Positions 9,114 to 60,792 are shown, counted from the first letter of the stretch. The stretch: DNA of 64,000 nt from a virus (IMGVR_UViG_3300009500_000011:104585-168584), one strand, 5' to 3'. Made by a program: numbers and translations. The notes: a model not told the origin generated them from the letters alone.

Positions 9114-9836
9114 TTATGTTGGGTCTTGGTCAAGAGCCCATAGGTCACTTATTAAGGAAGCATCAGCTTTAATGAGATGAGCCATATTACGAATCCATGC
9201 CGCAGATGAATGAACGGAAGCAATTGCTGTTGTTGCATCATTTAATAAATGATTTTGACTTGGGTCTAAACATGCAATGTCCCAGCGACAAGAAGAATCT
9301 CCTGAAAAGATTCCATATCCTCTTTGAGGAACGGTATCTTCTCCATCGTCATTTGTTTGAAGTGCGCGTTCACCGTGAGTTGAAACAATATAAATAGGTC
9401 CATTTATTAAAACAGATGGTTCTACAGAAACATTAAATGAACCGTTTGCTTCAATATTTTTTATTTTACAAACTCTTGCTACAATTCCGGCATGAATCCA
9501 TGCATGTGCAAAAGTATAAGGATTTGGACCCCAAGAACCTGTAGTAGTTACATCTGAACCATCCATCGTAAGAGCAGCGATTTCAACGTTTGCGCTTCCA
9601 TCACGGGGGTCAGAATTAAGGTGCCATGTTCCGTATGTCGTAACATCAGTTAAGTTGTTGTTTTTATAAATTGTGAATGCGTTTTTAAGAGTTTTCCAAT
9701 CAATTTTTGAGGGGTCGGTTACAGTTCCAAGAGAGGCGATATATTCACTTGAAAGATTGCCTGTTAAAGCAAATTCAATATGATAATCTCTCTGTCTTGT
9801 TGGTGGAGTAACGCTCCAATGACATGTTAAAATCAT
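9114..9836 (-). CDS. hypothetical protein; one of only a few convincing minus-strand genes
   Basis: 240-aa ORF bounded by the bidirectional terminator and a divergent promoter region; no recognisable motif. Confidence 0.55.
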   Translation of the reverse strand: MILTCHWSVTPPTRQRDYHIEFALTGNLSSEYIASLGTVTDPSKIDWKTLKNAFTIYKNNNLTDVTTYGTWHLNSDPRDGSANVEIAALTMDGSDVTTTGSWGPNPYTFAHAWIHAGIVARVCKIKNIEANGSFNVSVEPSVLINGPIYIVSTHGERALQTNDDGEDTVPQRGYGIFSGDSSCRWDIACLDPSQNHLLNDATTAIASVHSSAAWIRNMAHLIKADASLISDLWALDQDPT

Positions 9837-9846
9837 TTTAAAAATC

Positions 9847-10038
9847 CTAATTTAATTTTTGAATAGTAATAGTAGTTCCGCCTTCAGTAATAGAAACGTC
9901 TCCAAGACCATAGGCAGATAAATTAGCTGTTGTAGTCATTGTTGGAATTTGAACAACGATTGGTTTATTATCTTCAAAATTAGAAATATCTTTTAAAATA
10001 GCACCAATCATGCGAAGGTCTGTAAGTGGATTGCTCAT
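9847..10038 (-). CDS. hypothetical small protein, co-oriented with 9114..9836
   Basis: 63-aa ORF 10 nt upstream of the 240-aa gene; TATAAT directly upstream of its ATG on the minus strand. Confidence 0.45.
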   Translation of the reverse strand: MSNPLTDLRMIGAILKDISNFEDNKPIVVQIPTMTTTANLSAYGLGDVSITEGGTTITIQKLN

Positions 10039-11146: not shown

Positions 11147-11659
11147 ATGGATTTTTTAGTTGGCGATATATTAGTTTTAAAACAAGATGCTCTTGACCTT
11201 GAAGATAAAACTGGCAAAACAATTTTATATCCCGCAGGTTCCGAAGCTGAAATTATACAAATAAAAAATGAAAATGAATATCATCTGCAATTTCCAGATG
11301 CCAAAATATGGCCTCATGACTTGGCAACTTTATTGATTTTCTTTAATCGTAAAAAAGATGGTAAAAATGTTTATACTCGCCAGGTTTCAGAGTATGGTAC
11401 GCCACCAAAAGAGCTTGCTTTTTATATACCTAGAGAAGTTGATTGGCGTAAAAACTATAGGTATACTGTCAGAATTGAAGCAGAAGATTGTGGCTTTAAA
11501 AAATTGATTTGTCCTAGTTGTTTCAATGACCTGGGAGAAAATGGCGAACCAGATAATGAAGGTTTGCAAAAATGTCAAAAATGTGGTACAATGGTTCTCC
11601 CGATAGACCCATTAACATTCAAGTATCCACATGATGACGGAAATGAACACACAACTTAA
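11147..11659 (+). CDS. hypothetical protein with C-terminal Cys4 zinc ribbon
   Basis: CPSCF...CQKCG. Confidence 0.5.
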   Translation: MDFLVGDILVLKQDALDLEDKTGKTILYPAGSEAEIIQIKNENEYHLQFPDAKIWPHDLATLLIFFNRKKDGKNVYTRQVSEYGTPPKELAFYIPREVDWRKNYRYTVRIEAEDCGFKKLICPSCFNDLGENGEPDNEGLQKCQKCGTMVLPIDPLTFKYPHDDGNEHTT

Positions 11660-12935
11660 GAGTAATTCTCAAAAATTCTTAGAAGCAGCAAATTGGGCTC
11701 TTGTAAAAGAACGCTTTGGCGAAGATACAGGAGTTAATATTCGTCGCGCTTCTATAGATAATGTGCAAAATATTACGCTTTTCAATGGTTCAAAAGGTTT
11801 ACTTTTTGATGGATATTCGTTTCCTGAACAAGAACATCTTAAAGGCTTGATTGTTCACGAAGTATTAGGAAGCGCACATTCGGTTATAGCGGCATGTTTT
11901 CCTAAATTCTATAACTATGGCGAACCTGCTGAAAAACAAAAGCATCTTGAATACTTAAATGACGATTCTATGAGTGTGTTATTTGCTAAGAAAGAGGATG
12001 GAGTAAATATTCGTCCTTATTTCAATGCTGCAACAAATAGAGTTGAATTTGCTACGCGCGGAACCTTGCTTGTTGTTTCTGATATTGAAGAAACGTCTAA
12101 TCTTGATTATGGCGCAATGGCTCGTTCAATTGCAGAAGAAAAATATCCAATTCTTTTGGATGAGGAATTTGTAAAGAAATACTCTTGTATTTTTGAAATG
12201 ATTCATCCTGATTCCAAAATTCTTACGGATTATGGACAAAGAAAAGACCTTATTCTTCTGTCAGTATTTGATTTAGAAAATAACTGCTATGAATTTTCGC
12301 GTGAATGGGTAGCATCTTGGGCAAATATAATTGGGTTAAATTATGTTGAATATTGGTTTGACCAATATGCGCCTGTTTCTGAATTTTCTTCTTTAGTTGA
12401 AAAACTACTTAAAAAATGGAACGAAACGGATGTAGAAGGTTCTGTTGTTATATTTGTAAACTCTGAAGCAGAACCTGTATATCGTCTTAAAGTTAAAAAT
12501 GCTTATTATTTACAAATGCTTCGACTTGCAAAATTTTGCACTTTGAAGAATTTAGTCTCAATCATGGAAGAAAATAACTTTTCAAATTGGGAACAACTTC
12601 GTGCATATTTGTACGAAAGCCCTTCAATGAATGAAGAATTAGAAATGGCATATAAGGCTCATTTTGATGTATATGAAAATTGGTTAGCAAATCTTGAAAT
12701 CGAAAAACAAAATGTTTTAAAAGAATATCAAGAATTACCTTCTTTCGAATTACAAAAAGATTTTGCTTTATACATCTTAAAAGATGGCGCTTATCCATAC
12801 AATCCGCTATTCTTTGCTATTCGCAAATGGTTAGCAGAAGCCAAAAATCCTAATTTAGAACAATTCTTTGAAGAAAATGTTAAAGCAACAGTAATGTTGA
12901 AGAAAATCTATCCACTATCGGAAGTAGAGGAATAA
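11631..12935 (+). CDS. ATP-dependent RNA ligase, Rnl1 (T4 RnlA)-like
   Basis: nucleotidyltransferase motif I FAKKEDGVNIR (KxDG) at a position comparable to T4 Rnl1; 434 aa. Confidence 0.7.
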   Translation: MMTEMNTQLKSNSQKFLEAANWALVKERFGEDTGVNIRRASIDNVQNITLFNGSKGLLFDGYSFPEQEHLKGLIVHEVLGSAHSVIAACFPKFYNYGEPAEKQKHLEYLNDDSMSVLFAKKEDGVNIRPYFNAATNRVEFATRGTLLVVSDIEETSNLDYGAMARSIAEEKYPILLDEEFVKKYSCIFEMIHPDSKILTDYGQRKDLILLSVFDLENNCYEFSREWVASWANIIGLNYVEYWFDQYAPVSEFSSLVEKLLKKWNETDVEGSVVIFVNSEAEPVYRLKVKNAYYLQMLRLAKFCTLKNLVSIMEENNFSNWEQLRAYLYESPSMNEELEMAYKAHFDVYENWLANLEIEKQNVLKEYQELPSFELQKDFALYILKDGAYPYNPLFFAIRKWLAEAKNPNLEQFFEENVKATVMLKKIYPLSEVEE

Positions 12936-12936
12936 C

Positions 12937-13443
12937 ATGGGTTTATTTGATTATGTAATTTGTGATTATCCTTTACCTGATTCATATAAAGGGAGTATTA
13001 AGTTTACAACTAAAGACTTAAATTCTTTTATGAATACTTTTACTATTACTGAATCAGGTCAACTTTTAGAACACAAATTTCATTTTGAAGAAGTTCCTGA
13101 AGAAGAACGTCCTAAATTTAATACACCCGAATGGAATTCTGATAACGAAACAATTAAAACTTGGACACGCTTAATGGGTTCAAAGATTCAAGTATTTGAT
13201 GGCTTGGAACCCTACCTTTACACAGGTGCTGTTTGTTTTTACGGTTCAAATTTAGATAGTTGTAATTCGGATGGATATTATACTACAGAAAATGATGAAC
13301 CTTATGAATACAAAGAATACATTGCTTTGTTTAAAAATGGTATGTTAATTAACATTATTGAAAATAATGAAAAAGACAATGAATTTTTTACTCCAGAATG
13401 TTTTTTAACACAAAAACAGTATAAAGAAAAATATAATGAATGA
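12937..13443 (+). CDS. hypothetical protein
   Basis: ORF track. Confidence 0.5.
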   Translation: MGLFDYVICDYPLPDSYKGSIKFTTKDLNSFMNTFTITESGQLLEHKFHFEEVPEEERPKFNTPEWNSDNETIKTWTRLMGSKIQVFDGLEPYLYTGAVCFYGSNLDSCNSDGYYTTENDEPYEYKEYIALFKNGMLINIIENNEKDNEFFTPECFLTQKQYKEKYNE

Positions 13444-14197
13444 CTCGCTTGGCGACCGAATGAAAACATATTATGAAGATGTGACGCGGCATTACTTGCC
13501 TCGGCGAACTCATACAATTATTCGGTTAGATGGAAAATCTTTTCATACGTATACAAAAAAATTAGCAAGACCATTTGATGCTGGTTTGATTGAAGATATG
13601 CAAAAAACCACAATTCGACTTTGTGAGAATATTCAGGGCGTTGTTCTTGGTTATACGCAATCTGATGAAATATCTCTTGTTTTATGTGATTATAAAGAAA
13701 AAGAAACTGAATCCTTTTTTAAAGGTAATATTCAAAAAATTTGTTCAGTATCTGCAAGTATGGCTACTGCATTCTTCAATGCTTTTAGACAAGCCCGTAA
13801 TTTTGAAGGTGGTCCAGCATTTTTTGATGCTAGAGTATTTACTATTCCAGAAAAGGTAGAAGTTCTTAATTATCTTATTTGGAGACAAAAAGATGCAACA
13901 AGAAATTCTATTCAAATGGCCGCACAATCTGTTTATTCTCATAAAGAACTTAATAAAAAGAAGTGGTCTGATTTAAATGAAATGCTTTTTCAGAAAGGTA
14001 TTAATTTTAATGATTATTCTTCTTCTGAAAAACGTGGTTCTTTAATTGTGAAAGAATATTTTGAAGGGGAAGCCTATGATAAGCGTAAGCAAGAAAATGT
14101 TATAGTTACTCGGTCGCGTTGGATTGTAGAACCTGAAACACCTCTTTTTACTGCTGAAGAAAATAGAGATTTATTTGAAAGGTATTTATATAAATAA
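13436..14197 (+). CDS. Thg1-like protein (tRNA-His guanylyltransferase family / TLP, 3'-5' nucleotide addition)
   Basis: N-terminal MKTYYEDVTR...IIRLDGKSFHTYTKK...KPFD matches the conserved Thg1 N-terminus (FE...R.DG..FH.F). Confidence 0.75.
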   Translation: MNDSLGDRMKTYYEDVTRHYLPRRTHTIIRLDGKSFHTYTKKLARPFDAGLIEDMQKTTIRLCENIQGVVLGYTQSDEISLVLCDYKEKETESFFKGNIQKICSVSASMATAFFNAFRQARNFEGGPAFFDARVFTIPEKVEVLNYLIWRQKDATRNSIQMAAQSVYSHKELNKKKWSDLNEMLFQKGINFNDYSSSEKRGSLIVKEYFEGEAYDKRKQENVIVTRSRWIVEPETPLFTAEENRDLFERYLYK

Positions 14198-14278
14198 ATT
14201 TAGTTATTTTCTGACTTCTTTTCATGTCGAATCGCGTACTCTATTGACATGAAGAAATTTCTCGGAAATTTTCCCTAC

Positions 14279-14322
14279 AAAAAAGCCAACCATTTGTAAT
14301 AATAATGGGTGGCTTTTTGTTT
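14279..14322 (+). terminator. intrinsic terminator
   Basis: aagccaaccatttgtaataataatgggtggcttttt. Confidence 0.5.
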
Positions 14323-14349
14323 GAAAAACACTATTTATGATGGAGAGCA

Positions 14350-15051
14350 ATGTATATGCCAAAAAAACAATCTTCTCAAACACCTAGAAGAATTCCAACC
14401 ATAAGAACGGTACAATTTGAAGCCCAAACAATAAATCAAGAGAAGTTTGTAAAAAATATAGAAAGAAATGTTGTTTCATTCGGAATAGGTATACCAGGTT
14501 CAGGAAAAACGTATTTAGCATTAGCAACTGCTCTTAAAGCATTAGTTGAACAAAAATGTGAACGAGTTGTAATAACTAGACCAATGGTTGAAGCAGGTCC
14601 TTCTATCGGATTCCAACCTGGAAATGAAGAAGAAAAACTTGGAGTATATTTAAAACATATTTATGATATGATATATAAATTACTACCAAAAGTTTTGGCA
14701 GATGATTTGCTTGATTCAGGAAAAATATCAATTGGTGCTATTACATTTATGAGAGGAATGAATTTTGAAAACTCATATGTAATAATAGATGAAGCCGAAA
14801 ACTTAGACAAAAAATCATTTTATTTGTTATTAACAAGAATTTGTGAAGGGTCTAAAATGATTTTTTGTGGTGATACTGGCCAGGTTGATTTAAAAAATCC
14901 TAGTGAAAGCGGATTAAATGATGCAGTTTTAAAATTTCAAGGTAAAGAAAATTTTAGTGTAACTGAATTTACTATTGAAGATTGTCGCAGAAGTAAAGTT
15001 GTTATGGAAGTTATTAAAGCATATTTCCCTAACTCAACCAAGACAAAGTAA
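14350..15051 (+). CDS. phoH: PhoH-like ATPase
   Basis: GIGIPGSGKTYLALA Walker A; IIDEAEN Walker B; overall PhoH layout. Confidence 0.85.
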   Translation: MYMPKKQSSQTPRRIPTIRTVQFEAQTINQEKFVKNIERNVVSFGIGIPGSGKTYLALATALKALVEQKCERVVITRPMVEAGPSIGFQPGNEEEKLGVYLKHIYDMIYKLLPKVLADDLLDSGKISIGAITFMRGMNFENSYVIIDEAENLDKKSFYLLLTRICEGSKMIFCGDTGQVDLKNPSESGLNDAVLKFQGKENFSVTEFTIEDCRRSKVVMEVIKAYFPNSTKTK

Positions 15052-16802: not shown

Positions 16803-16837
16803 AAGGACTGAGATAGTAAAAATCTCGGTCCTTTTTG
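16803..16837 (+). terminator. intrinsic terminator
   Basis: aaggactgagatagtaaaaatctcggtccttttt. Confidence 0.65.
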
Positions 16838-16875
16838 TTTAATAGAACTTTGAAAACTGAATAAGATTTATTTTT

Positions 16876-17137: not shown

Positions 17138-17224
17138 GGAAGTATCGCATAGCGGCGATTGCATCTGACTGTAAATCAGACGCGCGAAAGCGCCTCGGAG
17201 GTTCGAGTCCTTCTACTTCCACCA
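17138..17224 (+). tRNA. tRNA-Tyr (anticodon GTA), long variable arm, CCA encoded
   Basis: acceptor ggaagta/tacttcc; loop ctGTAaa; variable arm cgcgcgaaagcgcctc. Confidence 0.75.
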
Positions 17225-17237
17225 TTTTAATAATATT

Positions 17238-17308
17238 TTGAGTTGCGCTAGAATAAAGTTACTTCGTCTGTAAAACGAGGAATCCGGGTTCGAGTCCCGG
17301 TCGGAATC
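17238..17308 (+). ncRNA. tRNA-like / Y-RNA-like element: 5' motif GAGTTGCGCTAGAATAAAGTTACTTC, then anticodon-like hairpin (loop ctGTAaa) and canonical T-arm, but no pairable acceptor stem
   Basis: 5' 26 nt match the triplicated motif upstream of the Ro60 gene (45037, 45278, 45367); T-arm ccgggttcgagtcccgg. Confidence 0.45.
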
Positions 17309-17399
17309 TAACGATTTCGGTACTTTAATCGGTAAAATCCTAAACACTTTGTTCGCTACCTTCGCTCAAAATATTTTAAAAACTTGTTGCCCATAGTAT

Positions 17400-17474
17400 G
17401 CCGAACTAGTATAATGGCTATTACATCTGTTTCGTAATCAGAGAATCTCAGTTCAATTCTGGGGTTCGGCCCCA
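17400..17474 (+). tRNA. tRNA-Thr (anticodon CGT as read), CCA encoded
   Basis: perfect acceptor gccgaac/gttcggc; loop ttCGTaa with U-U at 31:39. Confidence 0.6.
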
Positions 17475-18943: not shown

Positions 18944-18948
18944 ATCAT

Positions 18949-19020
18949 TGGAGTGGTAGCATAGAGGTAATGTACCGTTTTATCGCGAGCGGGATGAAGG
19001 TTCGAGTCCTTCCCCTCCAG
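18949..19020 (+). tRNA. tRNA-like gene with canonical T-arm and acceptor but unresolved anticodon arm (possible pseudo-tRNA or atypical tRNA)
   Basis: acceptor tggagtg/ccctcca (one mismatch); T-arm gaaggttcgagtccttc; no clean 5-bp/7-nt anticodon hairpin found by eye. Confidence 0.35.
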
Positions 19021-19040
19021 TTCTTTTTTAAAAAGAAATC

Positions 19041-44904: not shown

Positions 44905-44933
44905 TTGCAAATATTGGTATGCTTGTCTATAAT
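44905..44933 (+). promoter_or_regulatory. sigma70 promoter TTGCAA-17-TATAAT
   Basis: ttgcaa atattggtatgcttgtc tataat at the start of the ORF-free region. Confidence 0.6.
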
Positions 44934-45036
44934 CTCTAATAGAGTTGAAGCTGAAGGAAACGAAGCAGGTGGTTTAAATGCCATCGGAAGCAAGTGCAAG
45001 TCTTGCCATCTCTGCCATAAAAAACTAAATAAATTT

Positions 45037-45078
45037 GAGTTGCGTTAGAGTACGGTTACTTCTTAATTGACATATACC
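45037..45078 (+). repeat. motif copy R1 GAGTTGCGTTAGAGTACGGTTACTTCTTA
   Basis: aligned by eye with 45278, 45367 and 17238. Confidence 0.5.
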
Positions 45079-45277
45079 TAATGTCCCACCTCAATAAAGG
45101 AGTAAAATCTTTTATTGGGCTAGTCACCTGAGTCGTGGTGAGACGCATTGTGCAAATGTTAGTGGAGGCTCGTAAAATAAGCCTAGAACTAAAAATTCTT
45201 AGACTTAAGATGTAAAAATCAAAAGTCGGTCCCGTACTTGCCCTCTTCTCTCAAATTTATTTTAAAAATTAAAAACT

Positions 45278-45312
45278 TGGGTTGCGACAGATTACAGATA
45301 CTTCTTATATGG
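45278..45312 (+). repeat. motif copy R2 GGGTTGCGACAGATTACAGATACTTCTTA
   Basis: shares TTGCG...TA.A...(A/G)(A/T)TACTTCTT with R1/R3. Confidence 0.5.
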
Positions 45313-45366
45313 AATAAAAAAGCTGTATTCGCTACCTTCTCCCGAGTATAAATTTTATAATATTTA

Positions 45367-45440
45367 AATTGCGTTAATTACAGATACTTCTTGTATATTG
45401 GTTCGAGTCCATTAAGTGTAGTCGGTACACAACTGTAGTT
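45367..45440 (+). repeat. motif copy R3 AATTGCGTTAATTACAGATACTTCTTG followed by T-arm mimic and 3' complement (aattacag / ctgtagtt)
   Basis: 5' aattacag pairs with 3' ctgtagtt (8 bp, one G-U) enclosing ggttcgagtcc. Confidence 0.5.
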
Positions 45441-45465
45441 GTTCCATTCGTTTAAATTTTATTTA

Positions 45466-45499
45466 ATCCTTGGGAATATATTTCTCAAGGATTTTTTTG
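45466..45499 (+). terminator. intrinsic terminator
   Basis: atccttgggaatatatttctcaaggattttttt. Confidence 0.65.
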
Positions 45500-45519: not shown

Positions 45520-47205
45520 ATGAAATACAATACTAAAACAGTAAATGCTGGTCCAGGAACAAAAATGATAAATCTTGCAGGCGGAGAAGCTTTTAAAGTT
45601 GATAATCGTACTGCATTATATTTAACTTCTGCAACTTCTTTAGGTGGCGGTCAAGGAAATAAATATTATGTTTCTGCAAATCAAGAATACAAAAATATTC
45701 TTGAACTAATTGAAAAGGTTTCCGCTCAAGACCCAGAATTTATTTTCCAATTGGCTGCATATTGTCGTCAAGATTTATACCTTCGTAGTATTCCAACGGT
45801 ATTATTTATCGAAGGTATTCGTGCAATGCATAAGCAAAAAAAGGCCAATGCACCATATCCAGTAGATGCATCTAAGTATGCAAATGCTATTTTTGGTCGT
45901 GCTGATGAAATTGTTGAAGCAGTTGCATATTGGCTTGGAGTTGAAGGCCATCACAAATTGCCTTCCCCTCTTCGTAAATCTTTGACCATTGCTTTAAATT
46001 CATTTGATGAATACCGCTTGCTTAAATATAATCAAGAAGATAAGCAAGTTACATTTAAAGATATTGTTCGTCTTGTGCATCCAGAACCAAAAACTGATGT
46101 GCAAAGTGCAATTTTCAAATACTTCATCAAGGATGAAATCAGTCCAGAATTAATGCCAAAGGCAACTGCCCGCAAGGCTTTGCTTTCACGTACTCAATTT
46201 GATGAAGAAGCACAACGCTTGATGAGAGATTCATCTGCTACTTGGGAAACTGTAATTGCTAAATTCGGTTCGACTAAAGAAATTTGGGAAGCAGTTATTC
46301 CAAATATGGGATACATGGCTTTATTACGTAATCTTAATAATTTTCTTAAAAAAGAAGTAGATTTAGATTTAGTAATTCCTCGCCTTGTGAATCCGCAAGA
46401 AATTCGTAAAAGCAAGCAATTGCCTTTCCGTTTTTACACAGCAATGAAACAACTTGGTGTAGAAGATAACAATAAGAATTCTACGATGACATATTATGGA
46501 TATTCCGATTCAGTAAAAACAGCATTTGAAAAATGGCGTAATGTAAATTCTAGCGATGGAATTTCTCGTTTACGTAATGCTCTTGGTGTTGCTATGAATA
46601 TTGCAGTAGAAAATGTTCCTCACCTTTCAGGTCGTACCGTTGTTGCGGCAGACCTTTCTGGTTCTATGAGTCAACCTCTTAATAACAAATCAAATGTAAC
46701 TTATCGTGAAATCGCTTGTATTATGGCTGGTATTGCTGGTTCAATAGCACCAGATAATGTAATTTGTGGATTTGGTTGTTCATTTGCTGTTGCTAAAAAA
46801 GGCAAAGATATTCTTGAAACTGCAAATAATATTGATAAATTAAATGTTGGAATGTCAACGGATGCATGGCGTATTCTTGATTACTTGCTTACAAACAAAA
46901 TTTTTGTAGATAGAGTCATGTATTTTACAGATACACAATGTTATAATTCATATGGGGGCGCAAATTTAAACGAACTTTGGAAAAAATACAAAGTTCTTTG
47001 CCAATCAACTGGTAAAAAAGTTCCTGTTCTTTATGAAGTAAATCTTGCAGGTGGTAATACATCTAGTTTTAATTCTGAACAAAGAGTTGCTACCATTGGT
47101 GGATGGTCTGAAAGAATTTTTGATTTAATTACTACTTATGAAACTGACCCTCGTCAAGCAATAAGTAAAATTAAAGAAAAATATTCAGATTTAGTATCTG
47201 TTTAA
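45520..47205 (+). CDS. rsr: Ro60 (Rsr) ortholog: TROVE module + C-terminal vWA domain
   Basis: GGGQGNKYYVS, FQLAAYCRQD, ALLRNLNNF, LPFRFYTAMKQL and vWA MIDAS VVAADLSGSMSQ align with conserved Ro60 blocks; ATG 45520 with RBS AAAGGAAAAAAGAATG (track start 45439 is upstream read-through). Confidence 0.8.
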   Translation: MKYNTKTVNAGPGTKMINLAGGEAFKVDNRTALYLTSATSLGGGQGNKYYVSANQEYKNILELIEKVSAQDPEFIFQLAAYCRQDLYLRSIPTVLFIEGIRAMHKQKKANAPYPVDASKYANAIFGRADEIVEAVAYWLGVEGHHKLPSPLRKSLTIALNSFDEYRLLKYNQEDKQVTFKDIVRLVHPEPKTDVQSAIFKYFIKDEISPELMPKATARKALLSRTQFDEEAQRLMRDSSATWETVIAKFGSTKEIWEAVIPNMGYMALLRNLNNFLKKEVDLDLVIPRLVNPQEIRKSKQLPFRFYTAMKQLGVEDNNKNSTMTYYGYSDSVKTAFEKWRNVNSSDGISRLRNALGVAMNIAVENVPHLSGRTVVAADLSGSMSQPLNNKSNVTYREIACIMAGIAGSIAPDNVICGFGCSFAVAKKGKDILETANNIDKLNVGMSTDAWRILDYLLTNKIFVDRVMYFTDTQCYNSYGGANLNELWKKYKVLCQSTGKKVPVLYEVNLAGGNTSSFNSEQRVATIGGWSERIFDLITTYETDPRQAISKIKEKYSDLVSV

Positions 47206-60672: not shown

Positions 60673-60792
60673 ACAAACTTAAAGAAGTTGCGCTCAATCC
60701 GACGCTACAAGGTCGCTCCTTGTATCTTGTATAGAGAATATCGGAGTGCGAGACGTTTTCGGTTCACTACGAGTAAGAAGGGAACCGTTTAA

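What the first reader, a model, noticed from the sequence alone, without database searches (positions are those of the whole stretch)
17238..17308. Fourth copy of the Y-RNA 5' motif fused to a tRNA-like anticodon hairpin and T-arm inside the tRNA array
Between tRNA-Tyr and tRNA-Thr lies gagttgcgctagaataaagttacttcg. It matches the motif upstream of Ro60 (gagttgcgttagagtacggttacttc) at ~22 of 26 positions. It is followed by a tRNA-like anticodon hairpin (ttcgt/ctGTAaa/acgag) and a perfect T-arm (ccgggttcgagtcccgg). No 7-bp acceptor stem can be formed, so it is not a canonical tRNA. This suggests a family of tRNA-mimicking RNAs (Y-RNA-like) sharing a 5' module, one of them co-transcribed and presumably processed by the tRNA maturation machinery. 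A 9-mer agttgcgct also recurs at 60690 in the leader of the tRNA-Ala cluster.
Basis: seen in the sequence. Interest (0 to 1): 0.65.

Follow-up and report, generated by a model that had tools for sequence, protein, structure and literature searches.

The report
Phage Y RNA inside a tRNA array
The flagged sequence is the 5' half of a complete ~129-nt tRNA-mimicking Y RNA, the kind of small RNA that partners the Ro60 protein; it lies in a phage tRNA array 28 kb from the Ro60 gene, and a standard tRNA finder calls it tRNA-Tyr.

Summary
Window 17240-17368 (+) is one structured RNA. Its 5' and 3' ends pair into a bulged closing stem. This is the published YrlA-type Y RNA layout.

A covariance model built from this element and its ortholog beside Ro60 in a related phage (L004) finds four copies in the window. 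They are at 17240, 45037, 45279 and 45366. It also finds 3-8 tandem copies upstream of Ro60 in every related phage locus examined. Covariation is strong: 92.8% of cells pair, against 41-49% in slid controls, and 26 of 37 pairs show double changes.

ARAGORN calls 17242-17308 tRNA-Tyr. That reading scores below Rfam's tRNA threshold, and its acceptor and D pairings show no conservation (47% paired, the same as shuffles).

Close relatives (L014, L015) keep the copy between tRNA-Tyr and tRNA-Thr, with only pair-preserving stem changes.

The family fails Rfam's YrlA threshold and lacks the GNCGAA motif. I rate it a new variant of a known kind, in an unusual location. Ro60 binding and co-processing with the tRNAs are inferred, not shown.

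The parts
17240..17368 (+). Complete in-array Y RNA (YrlA-type), about 129 nt
   Evidence: CM R1 gives 152 bits, E = 3.6e-36, over the full model. The MFE fold recovers the closing stem and the V, T and AS hairpins. The ortholog L004 9735-9866 keeps 36 of 37 pairs, 10 of them with double compensatory changes.
17240..17242 (+). Terminal helix H1, 5' strand (GAG); pairs with 17365-17367 (CUC)
   Evidence: 100% paired in 21 family members, and all 3 pairs covary (GAG/CUC, CAG/CUG, GGU/ACC, AGG/CCU, AAG/CUU, GUG/CAC, GGG/CCC, AAA/UUU).
17243..17250 (+). Conserved 5' motif UUGCGCUA. It contains the GC (17245-17246) that pairs with GC at 17355-17356, followed by a bulge. Presumed Ro60-contact region.
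   Evidence: GUUGC-N-YAGA is conserved in all family members. The C-G pair is invariant in 21 of 21, and the G-C/G.U pair holds in 19 of 21. Ro60 binding is inferred by analogy with Y RNAs (PMC4201824).
17251..17259 (+). Helix H3, 5' strand (GAAUAAAGU); pairs with 17346-17354 (ACUUUGUUC). Analog of the tRNA anticodon stem in YrlA.
   Evidence: All 9 pairs show double changes across 21 members, and 89% of cells pair. The G-to-A change at 17351 in L014 turns U.G into U-A.
17260..17261 (+). Conserved UA within UUAC (the YUAY motif of YrlA)
   Evidence: (U/A)UACUUC is near-invariant in the family. Chen et al. describe a conserved YUAY that begins the V loop, and Wang et al. describe a conserved 23-UA-24 (PMC4201824; bioRxiv 10.1101/312249).
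17262..17280 (+).
   Evidence: Helix 4 pairs in 80% of cells, with double changes in 2 of its 6 pairs. The loop is 8 nt (CUGAUAAA) in the L004 ortholog.
17284..17300 (+). T arm CCGGG-UUCGAGU-CCCGG
   Evidence: 97.5% paired, with 3 of 5 pairs covarying. It matches the T arm of Rfam YrlA and of tRNA. U at 17283 can form the A15:U48 Levitt pair with A at 17328 (read from the sequence).
17301..17320 (+). Acceptor-like (AS) hairpin: UCGGAAUC-UAAC-GAUUUCGG, 8 bp closed by a tetraloop
   Evidence: All 8 pairs show double changes and 98.4% of cells pair across 8 members. In L004 the hairpin is CGUCAGCC-CCAG-GGCUGGCG. The U-to-C change at 17317 in L014 turns G.U into G-C.
17321..17338 (+). U8-A9 plus the D arm CUUU-AAUCGGUA-AAAU (A14, G18, G19 and A21 equivalents present)
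   Evidence: Aligns to the D arm of Rfam YrlA, model positions 66-81. 93.8% paired, with 2 of 4 pairs covarying. The 24 nt are identical in L004.
17355..17367 (+). 3' strand of the closing stem: GC, the pyrimidine-rich internal loop UACCUUCG, then CUC
   Evidence: The 3' motif GC-YYCYUCUC-NNN is conserved in the family.
17138..17224 (+). Upstream neighbour tRNA-Tyr(GUA), 15 nt before the Y RNA
   Evidence: ARAGORN; Rfam tRNA 56.1 bits.
17400..17474 (+). Downstream neighbour tRNA-Thr(CGU), 31 nt after the Y RNA
   Evidence: ARAGORN; Rfam tRNA 53.2 bits.
45037..45254 (+). Paralog A, a long Y-like RNA upstream of Ro60
   Evidence: R1 gives 22.4 bits, E = 0.003. It shares the 5' motif and the 3' CCUCUUCUCUC.
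45279..45345 (+). Paralog B, a short 67-nt Y-like RNA with the closing stem only
   Evidence: R1 gives 32.8 bits, E = 6.7e-6.
45366..45455 (+). Paralog C, with T arm and D arm but no AS hairpin
   Evidence: R1 gives 23.5-24.7 bits; sequence.
45520..47205 (+). Ro60/Rsr homolog (TROVE + vWA), the presumed protein partner
   Evidence: Pfam TROVE E = 3.5e-32; 926 homologs at E <= 1e-10.

Best explanation
Window 17240-17368 encodes a YrlA-type Y RNA. It is one of four paralogous Y RNAs of a large phage that carries 32 ARAGORN tRNA calls (this element among them) and a Ro60 gene.

Shown by structure and covariation:
- The 5' end (GAG-UU-GC-GCUA-GAAUAAAGU) and the 3' end (ACUUUGUUC-GC-UACCUUCG-CUC) pair into a bulged closing stem. 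All family members share this stem.
- The stem encloses a circularly permuted, L-shape-competent tRNA mimic: V hairpin, T arm, closed acceptor hairpin, U8-A9, D arm.

Inferred by analogy with characterised Y RNAs:
- The closing stem is the docking site for the phage Ro60 ring.
- The tRNA-like module is the effector or decoy end that brings Ro60 to tRNA-handling enzymes or substrates.

Inferred from anatomy:
- In this lineage the full-tRNA-mimic paralog has moved out of the Ro60-adjacent cluster into the Asp-Ile-Cys-Tyr-[Y]-Thr-Asn-Asn tRNA array.
- It is therefore made as part of the polycistronic tRNA precursor. Maturation of the flanking tRNAs (3' processing of tRNA-Tyr and RNase P cleavage at tRNA-Thr), plus trimming of the 15-nt and 31-nt A/U-rich spacers back to the closing stem, would release it.
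- This would couple its dosage to that of the phage tRNAs. The array lies beside the phage's tRNA-repair genes (Rnl1 ligase, Thg1-like, PhoH).
For: 1. Architecture. Rfam YrlA aligns its T arm, AS hairpin and D arm in the right order to 17283-17338. The published YrlA layout is 5' motif, YUAY, V, T, AS, D (PMC4201824; bioRxiv 10.1101/312249).
2. Ortholog. L004 9735-9866 lies directly upstream of Ro60. It keeps 36 of 37 pairs, 10 of them with double compensatory changes, while the AS hairpin sequence is entirely different.
3. Family search. CM R1 finds full-length, same-strand hits only in Ro60-upstream clusters of L001, L004, L005, L006, L008, L010 and L019, and at 17240.
4. Covariation. Eight tRNA-module members are 92.8% paired against 41-49% when slid. 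26 of 37 pairs show double changes, and 0 of 500 shuffles reach the observed value. The closing stem over 21 members is 92.5% paired, with 12 of 14 pairs covarying.
5. Purifying selection in place. L014 and L015 keep the element between tRNA-Tyr and tRNA-Thr. They differ from the window at 4 positions: 3 pair-preserving stem changes and 1 loop change.
6. The canonical tRNA pairing is unsupported: 47% paired, the same as shuffles.
7. Transcription-unit anatomy. The scan finds no strong terminator-like hairpin inside the array. The strong one (12 pairs) ends at 16833, upstream of the array; the only in-array match is a 5-pair stem within tRNA-Asn. The Ro60-adjacent cluster is likewise a promoter / tRNA-like / Y-Y-Y / terminator unit with A/U-rich spacers of roughly 20 nt.
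8. Context. Rnl1, Thg1-like and PhoH genes lie 2-5 kb upstream of the array.
Against: - There are no expression, end-mapping or Ro60-binding data.
- Rfam YrlA scores only 15.5 bits against a gathering score of 69.
- The GNCGAA(N)G / CGAA Rsr-binding motif of published YrlA and Yrl RNAs is absent. GUUGC-N-YAGA takes its place.
- The D stem is weak (one C.U and three A-U pairs) and is not predicted thermodynamically. The fold z-score is only -1.8.
- The covariation counts were made on alignments fitted to the model structure, which biases them upward.
- The in-array position is seen only in one shallow lineage (the window, L014 and L015). More distant relatives lack it in their arrays (L016-L018).
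- No promoter for the array was identified.
Confidence: 0.8

Rival explanations
1. It is a functional but non-canonical tRNA-Tyr(GUA) at 17242-17308, with a reduced D arm, used in translation.
For: - ARAGORN calls tRNA-Tyr, anticodon GUA, in the window and in L014.
- It sits in a tRNA array.
- It has a 7-nt loop C-U-G-U-A-A-A with U33 and A37 equivalents, and a perfect T arm.
Against: - Rfam tRNA scores 24.8 bits, below the threshold of 29. The acceptor has two mismatches and one G.U, and the D arm is degenerate.
- The 67-mer alone folds without an acceptor stem, z = +0.36.
- The acceptor and D pairings are 47% paired across homologs, equal to the shuffles.
- The L004 ortholog has an 8-nt loop and no ARAGORN call.
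- The 60 nt downstream of 17308 are conserved and covary with the 5' end.
- A normal tRNA-Tyr(GUA) lies immediately upstream.
Confidence: 0.03
2. It is a decaying pseudogene, derived from a duplicate of the neighbouring tRNA-Tyr or from a dimeric-tRNA remnant, with no function.
For: - It is adjacent to tRNA-Tyr and has the same anticodon-loop heptamer.
- Chen et al. warn that tandem tRNAs (the T arm of one plus the D arm of the next) can mimic YrlA hits (PMC4201824).
Against: - Beyond the universal T-loop and the loop heptamer it does not resemble the tRNA-Tyr stems (read).
- Its ortholog lies next to Ro60 rather than tRNA-Tyr in L004.
- All stems are kept by compensatory changes.
- The acceptor-like helix is a single closed hairpin, not two tRNA ends.
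- The 5' and 3' ends pair and covary.
Confidence: 0.02
3. It is a Ro60-independent tRNA-like element. It would act as a processing punctuation mark for the tRNA precursor, or as a decoy or sponge for host tRNA-targeting nucleases or modification enzymes. It would use the Y-RNA scaffold only as a stable fold.
For: - It lies 28 kb from Ro60, inside the tRNA operon and next to Rnl1 and Thg1-like repair genes.
- It is a complete tRNA mimic with a 7+1-bp acceptor helix. Chen et al. link a 7-bp acceptor helix to RNase P cleavage of M. smegmatis YrlA.
- The V loop in this lineage copies the tRNA-Tyr anticodon loop.
Against: - It retains the entire family-specific closing stem and its conserved internal-loop sequences (GUUGC...YAGA and GC-YYCCUUC). 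These are the only features shared with the tRNA-module-free paralogs, so they are most simply the Ro60 site.
- The stem substitution in L014 is pair-preserving.
- The ortholog in L004 is part of the Ro60 cluster.
Confidence: 0.1

Closest known systems
YrlA (Y RNA-like A; Rfam RF02553) of Salmonella, M. smegmatis and mycobacteriophages (Chen et al. 2014, PMC4201824; Wang et al. 2018, bioRxiv 10.1101/312249)
   Same: - Modular Y RNA whose 5' and 3' ends pair into a stem.
- Conserved YUAY / UA after the 5' strand.
- The same order of V stem-loop, T arm, closed acceptor-like stem-loop, U8-A9 and D arm.
- The same tRNA tertiary-contact nucleotides (A14, G18-G19, U54-U55-C56, A58, A15:U48).
- The family is encoded upstream of Ro60 on the same strand, with several paralogs per genome.
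   Different: - It scores far below the Rfam gathering threshold (15.5 against 69 bits).
- The 5' Rsr motif is GUUGC-N-YAGA instead of GNCGAA(N)G.
- There is a conserved pyrimidine-rich 3' loop, CCUUCUC.
- There are up to about 8 tandem copies per phage.
- This copy is 28 kb from Ro60, inside a tRNA array. The published search discarded exactly that class: hits more than 4 kb from Ro60 or overlapping tandem tRNAs.
Yrl1/Yrl2 of Thermus phage phiLo (PMC12135203)
   Same: Phage-encoded Y-like RNAs that accompany a phage Ro60. They were shown in vitro to bind the phage Ro60 and host PNPase.
   Different: The phiLo RNAs lie directly upstream of Ro60 and carry the CGAA motif. They were defined by a stem-bulge-stem shape; the passages read mention no tRNA-like module, and none lies in a tRNA array.
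Deinococcus radiodurans Yrn1
   Same: Ro60 (Rsr)-bound Y RNA with a T-arm-like element. It tethers Rsr to an effector (PNPase).
   Different: [quoted passage not shown] The phage element follows the YrlA orientation.
Canonical class II tRNA-Tyr(GUA)
   Same: T arm, D-loop nucleotides, a hairpin with loop CUGUAAA, a 7-8-bp acceptor-type helix, and a position in a tRNA array.
   Different: The acceptor helix is closed by a loop, so there are no free 5' and 3'-CCA ends. The order is circularly permuted. The anticodon stem is replaced by a long open stem. It falls below the Rfam tRNA threshold.
tRNA-like RNAs released by tRNA processing enzymes (for example mascRNA from MALAT1)
   Same: A tRNA-like fold embedded in a longer precursor and presumably released by tRNA-maturation nucleases.
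   Different: Those are eukaryotic, are not permuted and are not Ro60 partners. Here the flanking genuine tRNAs, rather than the element itself, would define the cleavage sites.

Membership tests
Y RNA, YrlA subfamily (as defined by Chen et al. 2014) | The 5' and 3' ends pair into a long stem that carries the Ro60 site | tested here: met
   H1-H3 are 92.5% paired over 21 members, with 12 of 14 pairs covarying. The MFE fold recovers the stem.
Y RNA, YrlA subfamily (as defined by Chen et al. 2014) | tRNA-like domain in the order V stem-loop, T arm, closed acceptor-like stem-loop, D arm | tested here: met
   Partial Rfam YrlA alignment to 17283-17338. Helices 4-7 are 80-98% paired with covariation, and 8 of 8 AS pairs show double changes.
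Y RNA, YrlA subfamily (as defined by Chen et al. 2014) | Conserved GNCGAA(N0-1)G motif near the 5' end | tested here: not met
   The 5' strand reads GAGUUGCGCUAGAAUAAAG. The family consensus is GUUGC-N-YAGA, and no member has CGAA at that place.
Y RNA, YrlA subfamily (as defined by Chen et al. 2014) | Conserved YUAY / UA preceding the V loop | tested here: met
   UUAC at 17259-17262. (U/A)UAC is near-invariant in the family.
Y RNA, YrlA subfamily (as defined by Chen et al. 2014) | Encoded within about 4 kb of the Ro60 gene on the same strand | tested here: not met
   This copy is on the same strand but 28.2 kb upstream of Ro60 (17368 against 45520). Its three paralogs and its L004 ortholog do meet the criterion.
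Y RNA, YrlA subfamily (as defined by Chen et al. 2014) | Bound and stabilised by Ro60/Rsr | not testable with these tools
   Needs immunoprecipitation or EMSA.
Rfam RF02553 (YrlA covariance model) | Score at or above the gathering threshold (69 bits) | tested here: not met
   15.5 bits, E = 0.78, local match to model positions 30-81 only. The best family member seen scores 18.9 bits (L006). There are no hits at gathering in the window or in 7 loci.
tRNA (Rfam RF00005; canonical cloverleaf) | Score at or above the gathering threshold (29 bits) | tested here: not met
   24.8 bits, and not listed at gathering. ARAGORN does call it, at 67 nt.
tRNA (Rfam RF00005; canonical cloverleaf) | 7-bp acceptor stem formed by the 5' and 3' ends, and a D stem, both maintained in homologs | tested here: not met
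   5 of 7 pairs in the window. 47% of cells pair across 8 homologs, the same as shuffles and slid controls, with no compensatory changes in the acceptor.
tRNA (Rfam RF00005; canonical cloverleaf) | 7-nt anticodon loop conserved in orthologs | tested here: not met
   The L004 ortholog has an 8-nt loop, CUGAUAAA.

The most novel reading that the evidence does not exclude
The relocation may be adaptive rather than incidental.
- In this lineage the full tRNA-mimic Y RNA has become a pseudo-member of the phage tRNA operon.
- Its V loop was reshaped, by loss of one A relative to the L004 ortholog, into an exact copy of the tRNA-Tyr anticodon loop: U33-G34-U35 in a 7-nt loop.
- The Ro60-Y RNP could then act as a sensor, decoy or recruitment platform for enzymes that recognise the Tyr/His/Asn/Asp-type anticodon loop. 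Candidates are anticodon nucleases of host defence and tRNA-guanine transglycosylase.
- It would work together with the neighbouring Rnl1 and Thg1-like repair genes.
- The 7+1-bp acceptor hairpin could also be cut by RNase P and CCA-tailed, as in M. smegmatis YrlA, giving a two-piece Ro60-bound RNA.
Probability: 0.12. Interest if true: 0.7.

Novelty: new variant of a known kind. Interest (0 to 1): 0.45.

Why it matters
Y RNAs with tRNA-like domains are known partners of bacterial and phage Ro60, but the job of the tRNA-like domain is still open. Four things here bear on that.
1. This is a divergent phage Y RNA family that the Rfam YrlA model does not detect. Its putative Ro60-binding motif differs, and it has 3-8 diversified paralogs per genome.
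2. One paralog is embedded in a tRNA operon beside tRNA-repair genes. Published surveys excluded that class of location by design. It links Y RNA supply to tRNA biogenesis and repair during infection.
3. There is a practical annotation trap: ARAGORN reports this Y RNA as a second tRNA-Tyr.
4. The family supplies natural variants (closing stem only, T+D only, full tRNA mimic) for testing what the tRNA-like module recruits.

Tried and rejected
- GenBank phages (blastn): no relative of either the in-array region or the Ro60-upstream region, only generic tRNA hits.
- Exact-protein lookup of the window's Ro60: not on record.
- IMG/VR scan with single-protein peptide patterns: no relative.
- IMG/VR pattern scans with the 5' motif and with the D-arm 21-mer: 0 hits.
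- JGI metagenome scan with TACTTTAATCGGTAAAATCC: 2 hits, both chance. Only the 18-nt stretch matched R1, and neither locus has tRNAs.
- The MAFFT alignment of 11 elements (A1) misaligned the variable hairpins; only 21-29 of 37 pairs fitted for the paralogs. I replaced it with covariance-model-guided alignments (A4, A6).
- Canonical tRNA reading: rejected.
- tRNA-Tyr pseudogene or dimeric-tRNA artefact: rejected (see the rival explanations).
- The 60686 9-mer as a fifth copy: rejected by R1, with filters on and off. The spacer that holds it is nevertheless strikingly conserved.
- A sigma-70 promoter for the array: not found convincingly.

Full report
**1. The observation**

- GAGTTGCGCTAGAATAAAGTTACTTC starts at 17240.
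- A 6-bp hairpin with loop CUGUAAA follows at 17262-17280.
- A perfect T arm follows at 17284-17300.
- tRNA-Tyr ends at 17224 and tRNA-Thr starts at 17400.

The 26-mer matches 45037-45062, upstream of a TROVE-domain Ro60 gene, at 22 of 26 positions. The Ro60 gene is 45520-47205, Pfam TROVE E = 3.5e-32. The 13-mer GAGTTGCGYTAGA occurs exactly only at these two sites.

ARAGORN calls 17242-17308 a 67-nt tRNA-Tyr(GUA). Rfam's tRNA model does not reach threshold: 24.8 bits against 29. Its alignment has two acceptor mismatches, one G.U and a degenerate D arm.

**2. The element is twice as long as flagged**

A permissive Rfam scan aligned the YrlA model (RF02553, positions 30-81) to 17283-17338. The aligned parts, in order, are:
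- the T arm;
- a closed hairpin UCGGAAUC-UAAC-GAUUUCGG;
- UA;
- a D arm CUUU-AAUCGGUA-AAAU.

The score is only 15.5 bits, but the order is that of the circularly permuted tRNA-like domain of YrlA.

Downstream, ACUUUGUUC-GC-UACCUUCG-CUC (17346-17367) is complementary to the 5' strand GAG..GC....GAAUAAAGU. The MFE fold of 17240-17368 recovers the terminal helix, the long stem, the V hairpin, the T arm and the acceptor-like hairpin. The 67-nt "tRNA" alone forms no acceptor stem.

**3. Relatives**

There is no close relative in GenBank phages. A protein search with Ro60 gave a clade of 12 homologs at 49-94% identity. I fetched the contigs of seven of them, L001-L011, plus one 194-kb IMG/VR genome, L019.

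Wherever the sequence upstream of Ro60 is present, it holds 3-8 tandem elements on the Ro60 strand.
- Each element starts with RRGUUGC-N-YAGA-N5-6-(U/A)UACUUC.
- Each ends with GC-YYCYUCUC followed by 3 nt complementary to the first 3 nt.
- The spacers are A/U-rich and roughly 15-25 nt long.

L004 has a Ro60 that is 59% identical. Its fourth element (9735-9866), immediately before the Ro60 terminator and gene, is the ortholog of the window's 17240 element.
- The V hairpin, the T loop and a 24-nt stretch covering U8-A9 and the D arm are identical.
- The acceptor-like hairpin is completely different in sequence but still forms 8 bp: CGUCAGCC-CCAG-GGCUGGCG.
- 36 of 37 proposed pairs hold in both RNAs, 10 of them through double compensatory changes.
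- ARAGORN does not call a tRNA there, and its V loop has 8 nt.

**4. Model search and covariation**

I built covariance model R1 from just these two sequences. It finds full-length hits, on the Ro60 strand only, as follows.
- In the Ro60-upstream clusters of all related loci.
- In the window at 17240-17369 (152 bits), 45279-45345 (32.8), 45366-45455 (23.5) and 45037-45254 (22.4).
- Nothing else in the window is significant with filters on or off.

So "fourth copy" is correct.

On the eight members that carry the full tRNA-like module:
- 92.8% of cells pair, against 41-49% when the partners are slid;
- 26 of 37 pairs show changes on both sides;
- no shuffle of 500 reaches any observed measure;
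- the acceptor-like hairpin has 8 of 8 covarying pairs and is 98.4% paired.

The closing stem alone, over 21 members that include short paralogs lacking any tRNA module:
- is 92.5% paired, with 12 of 14 pairs covarying;
- has a 3-bp terminal helix that is paired in all 21.

These alignments are fitted to the model, which inflates the counts. The slid controls and the window/L004 pairwise comparison, which uses a MAFFT alignment, point the same way.

The canonical tRNA pairing (acceptor plus D stem, as ARAGORN and Rfam drew it) is 47% paired. That is indistinguishable from shuffles and slid controls.

**5. Is the in-array position real and maintained?**

I used the 330-aa protein encoded just upstream of the array to fetch syntenic contigs.
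- The two close relatives, L014 and L015 (flanking protein 96% identical), have the element at the same place. It lies between tRNA-Tyr and tRNA-Thr and scores 147.5 bits.
- They differ from the window at four positions in the element. G-C becomes G.U in the T stem, G.U becomes G-C in the AS stem, U.G becomes U-A in H3, and one change is in the AS loop. All three stem changes preserve pairing.
- More distant relatives (L016, L017, L018) have syntenic tRNA arrays without a Y RNA. L016 goes from tRNA-Tyr straight to tRNA-Glu.

The full-tRNA-mimic paralog is therefore Ro60-adjacent in L004 and in-array in the window lineage, which makes this a lineage-specific relocation. The window's Ro60 cluster correspondingly has three Y RNAs where L004 has four.

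**6. Comparison with what is known**

Chen et al. 2014 (PMC4201824) define YrlA RNAs by these features:
- a 5' GNCGAA(N)G motif;
- a conserved YUAY that begins a "V" stem-loop;
- a T arm, an acceptor-like (AS) stem-loop and a D arm;
- location within 4 kb of Ro60.

They found such RNAs in 254 bacteria and 22 phages. They explicitly discarded hits that overlapped tandem tRNA genes or lay far from Ro60. The crystal structure (bioRxiv 10.1101/312249) shows a true L-shape with a closed acceptor loop. Thermus phage phiLo has two Y-like RNAs upstream of its Ro60, and they bind it in vitro (PMC12135203).

The present element matches the architecture:
- UUAC at 17259-17262;
- V, T, AS and D in the published order;
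- A14, G18-G19, U54-U55-C56-G57-A58 and an A15:U48 pair readable in the sequence.

It fails three criteria:
- it has no GNCGAA/CGAA motif (GUUGC-N-YAGA instead);
- it scores far below the Rfam gathering threshold;
- this copy is 28 kb from Ro60.

It therefore works like a YrlA. Formally I file it as a new variant, not as a member of RF02553.

**7. Mechanism**

*Shown.* The fold, its conservation, the family relationship, and the genomic link of the family to Ro60.

*Inferred from established Y RNA biology.* The conserved bulged closing stem docks the phage Ro60, and the tRNA-like module is the effector end.

*Inferred from anatomy.* The element is probably transcribed within the tRNA precursor.
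- It lies 15 nt after tRNA-Tyr and 31 nt before tRNA-Thr.
- The scan finds no strong terminator-like hairpin within the array. The strong one is at 16803-16833, upstream of the array. The only in-array match is a 5-pair stem inside tRNA-Asn.
- Maturation of its neighbours plus trimming back to the closing stem would therefore free it.
- The Ro60-adjacent cluster uses the same logic. A promoter-like site at 44905-44933 is followed by a tRNA-like element at 44941-45014 (Rfam tRNA 32 bits), then three Y RNAs separated by A/U-rich spacers, then a terminator at 45465-45493.

*Context.* Rnl1-type RNA ligase (11631-12935), a Thg1-like enzyme (13436-14197) and PhoH (14350-15051) lie just upstream of the array. 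Relatives carry RtcB, another RNA ligase and RlaP near Ro60. This fits the proposed link between Ro60/Y RNA and RNA repair (PMC7824862; bioRxiv 10.1101/312249).

*Not shown.* Expression, RNA ends, Ro60 binding, RNase P sensitivity of the 7+1-bp acceptor hairpin, and any decoy role of the tRNA-Tyr-like V loop.

**8. The 9-mer at about 60690**

AGTTGCGCT recurs at 60686-60694, with 0.14 expected by chance. R1 gives no hit there. The related phage L003 has ATTTGCGCT at that place. It is not a family member on present evidence.

**9. Verdict**

This is a genuine, well-supported structured RNA. It is a YrlA-type Y RNA of a divergent phage family, displaced into a tRNA operon, and ARAGORN calls it tRNA-Tyr. 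The kind is known. The family variant and the location are new, and the functional claims remain inference.

Noticed in passing
window 60673-60792 (compare L003 9383-9505): The ~120-nt spacer between tRNA-Val(GAC) and tRNA-Ala(UGC) is almost identical between the window and L003, although the two phages' Ro60 proteins are only 64% identical. This suggests a strongly constrained, unannotated ncRNA. It has no Rfam match even at E <= 10, and its fold z-score is -1.1.
   Followed up: partly
window 44941-45014 (compare L001 5215-5288): A weak tRNA-like element heads the Ro60-proximal Y RNA cluster, starting about 8 nt after a TTGCAA-17-TATAAT promoter-like site. Rfam tRNA gives 32 bits, just above threshold, but ARAGORN makes no call. 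Its anticodon-loop region is oversized and differs in the 94%-identity relative.
   Followed up: partly
window 18948-19021 (also L014 14896-14969): ARAGORN reports a tRNA of undetermined identity with a 4-base anticodon (atcg), and Rfam tRNA gives 35.2 bits. It is conserved in the close relative. It could be a frameshift-suppressor-type or otherwise unusual tRNA.
   Followed up: no
window 16854-16867; L014 11742-11755; L016 14889-14902: The 14-mer AAACTGAATAAGAT lies 8-9 nt upstream of the first tRNA of the array in the window and L014. It lies 4 nt upstream of tRNA-Tyr in the divergent L016. It may be a phage-specific promoter or processing signal for tRNA units.
   Followed up: partly
window 11631-15051: An RNA/tRNA-repair gene block lies directly upstream of the tRNA array: T4 Rnl1-type RNA ligase, a Thg1-like 3'-5' nucleotidyltransferase, and PhoH. 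In L014 the PhoH gene is 584 aa with a faint Hom_end_hint (intein/homing-endonuclease) hit, against 233 aa in the window.
   Followed up: partly
L001 10868-12001 and 17276-17485; L014 13342-14556: IS605 OrfB/TnpB (Cas12f1-like) genes are inserted in the close relatives near the tRNA blocks. L014 has one between the first tRNA block and the Gln/Phe tRNAs. ARAGORN finds two tRNA-Asn and three tRNA-Gln in the window but one and two in L014, so the arrays are being remodelled by mobile elements.
   Followed up: no
L005 5718-6691; L010 494-1588; L008 5443-6129: Related phages carry 5-8 tandem Y-like RNAs of very different sizes and inner modules: closing stem only, T+D only, full tRNA mimic, and long forms of 200-270 nt. 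All share one closing-stem design, so the ncRNA family looks diversified with a single presumed protein partner.
   Followed up: partly
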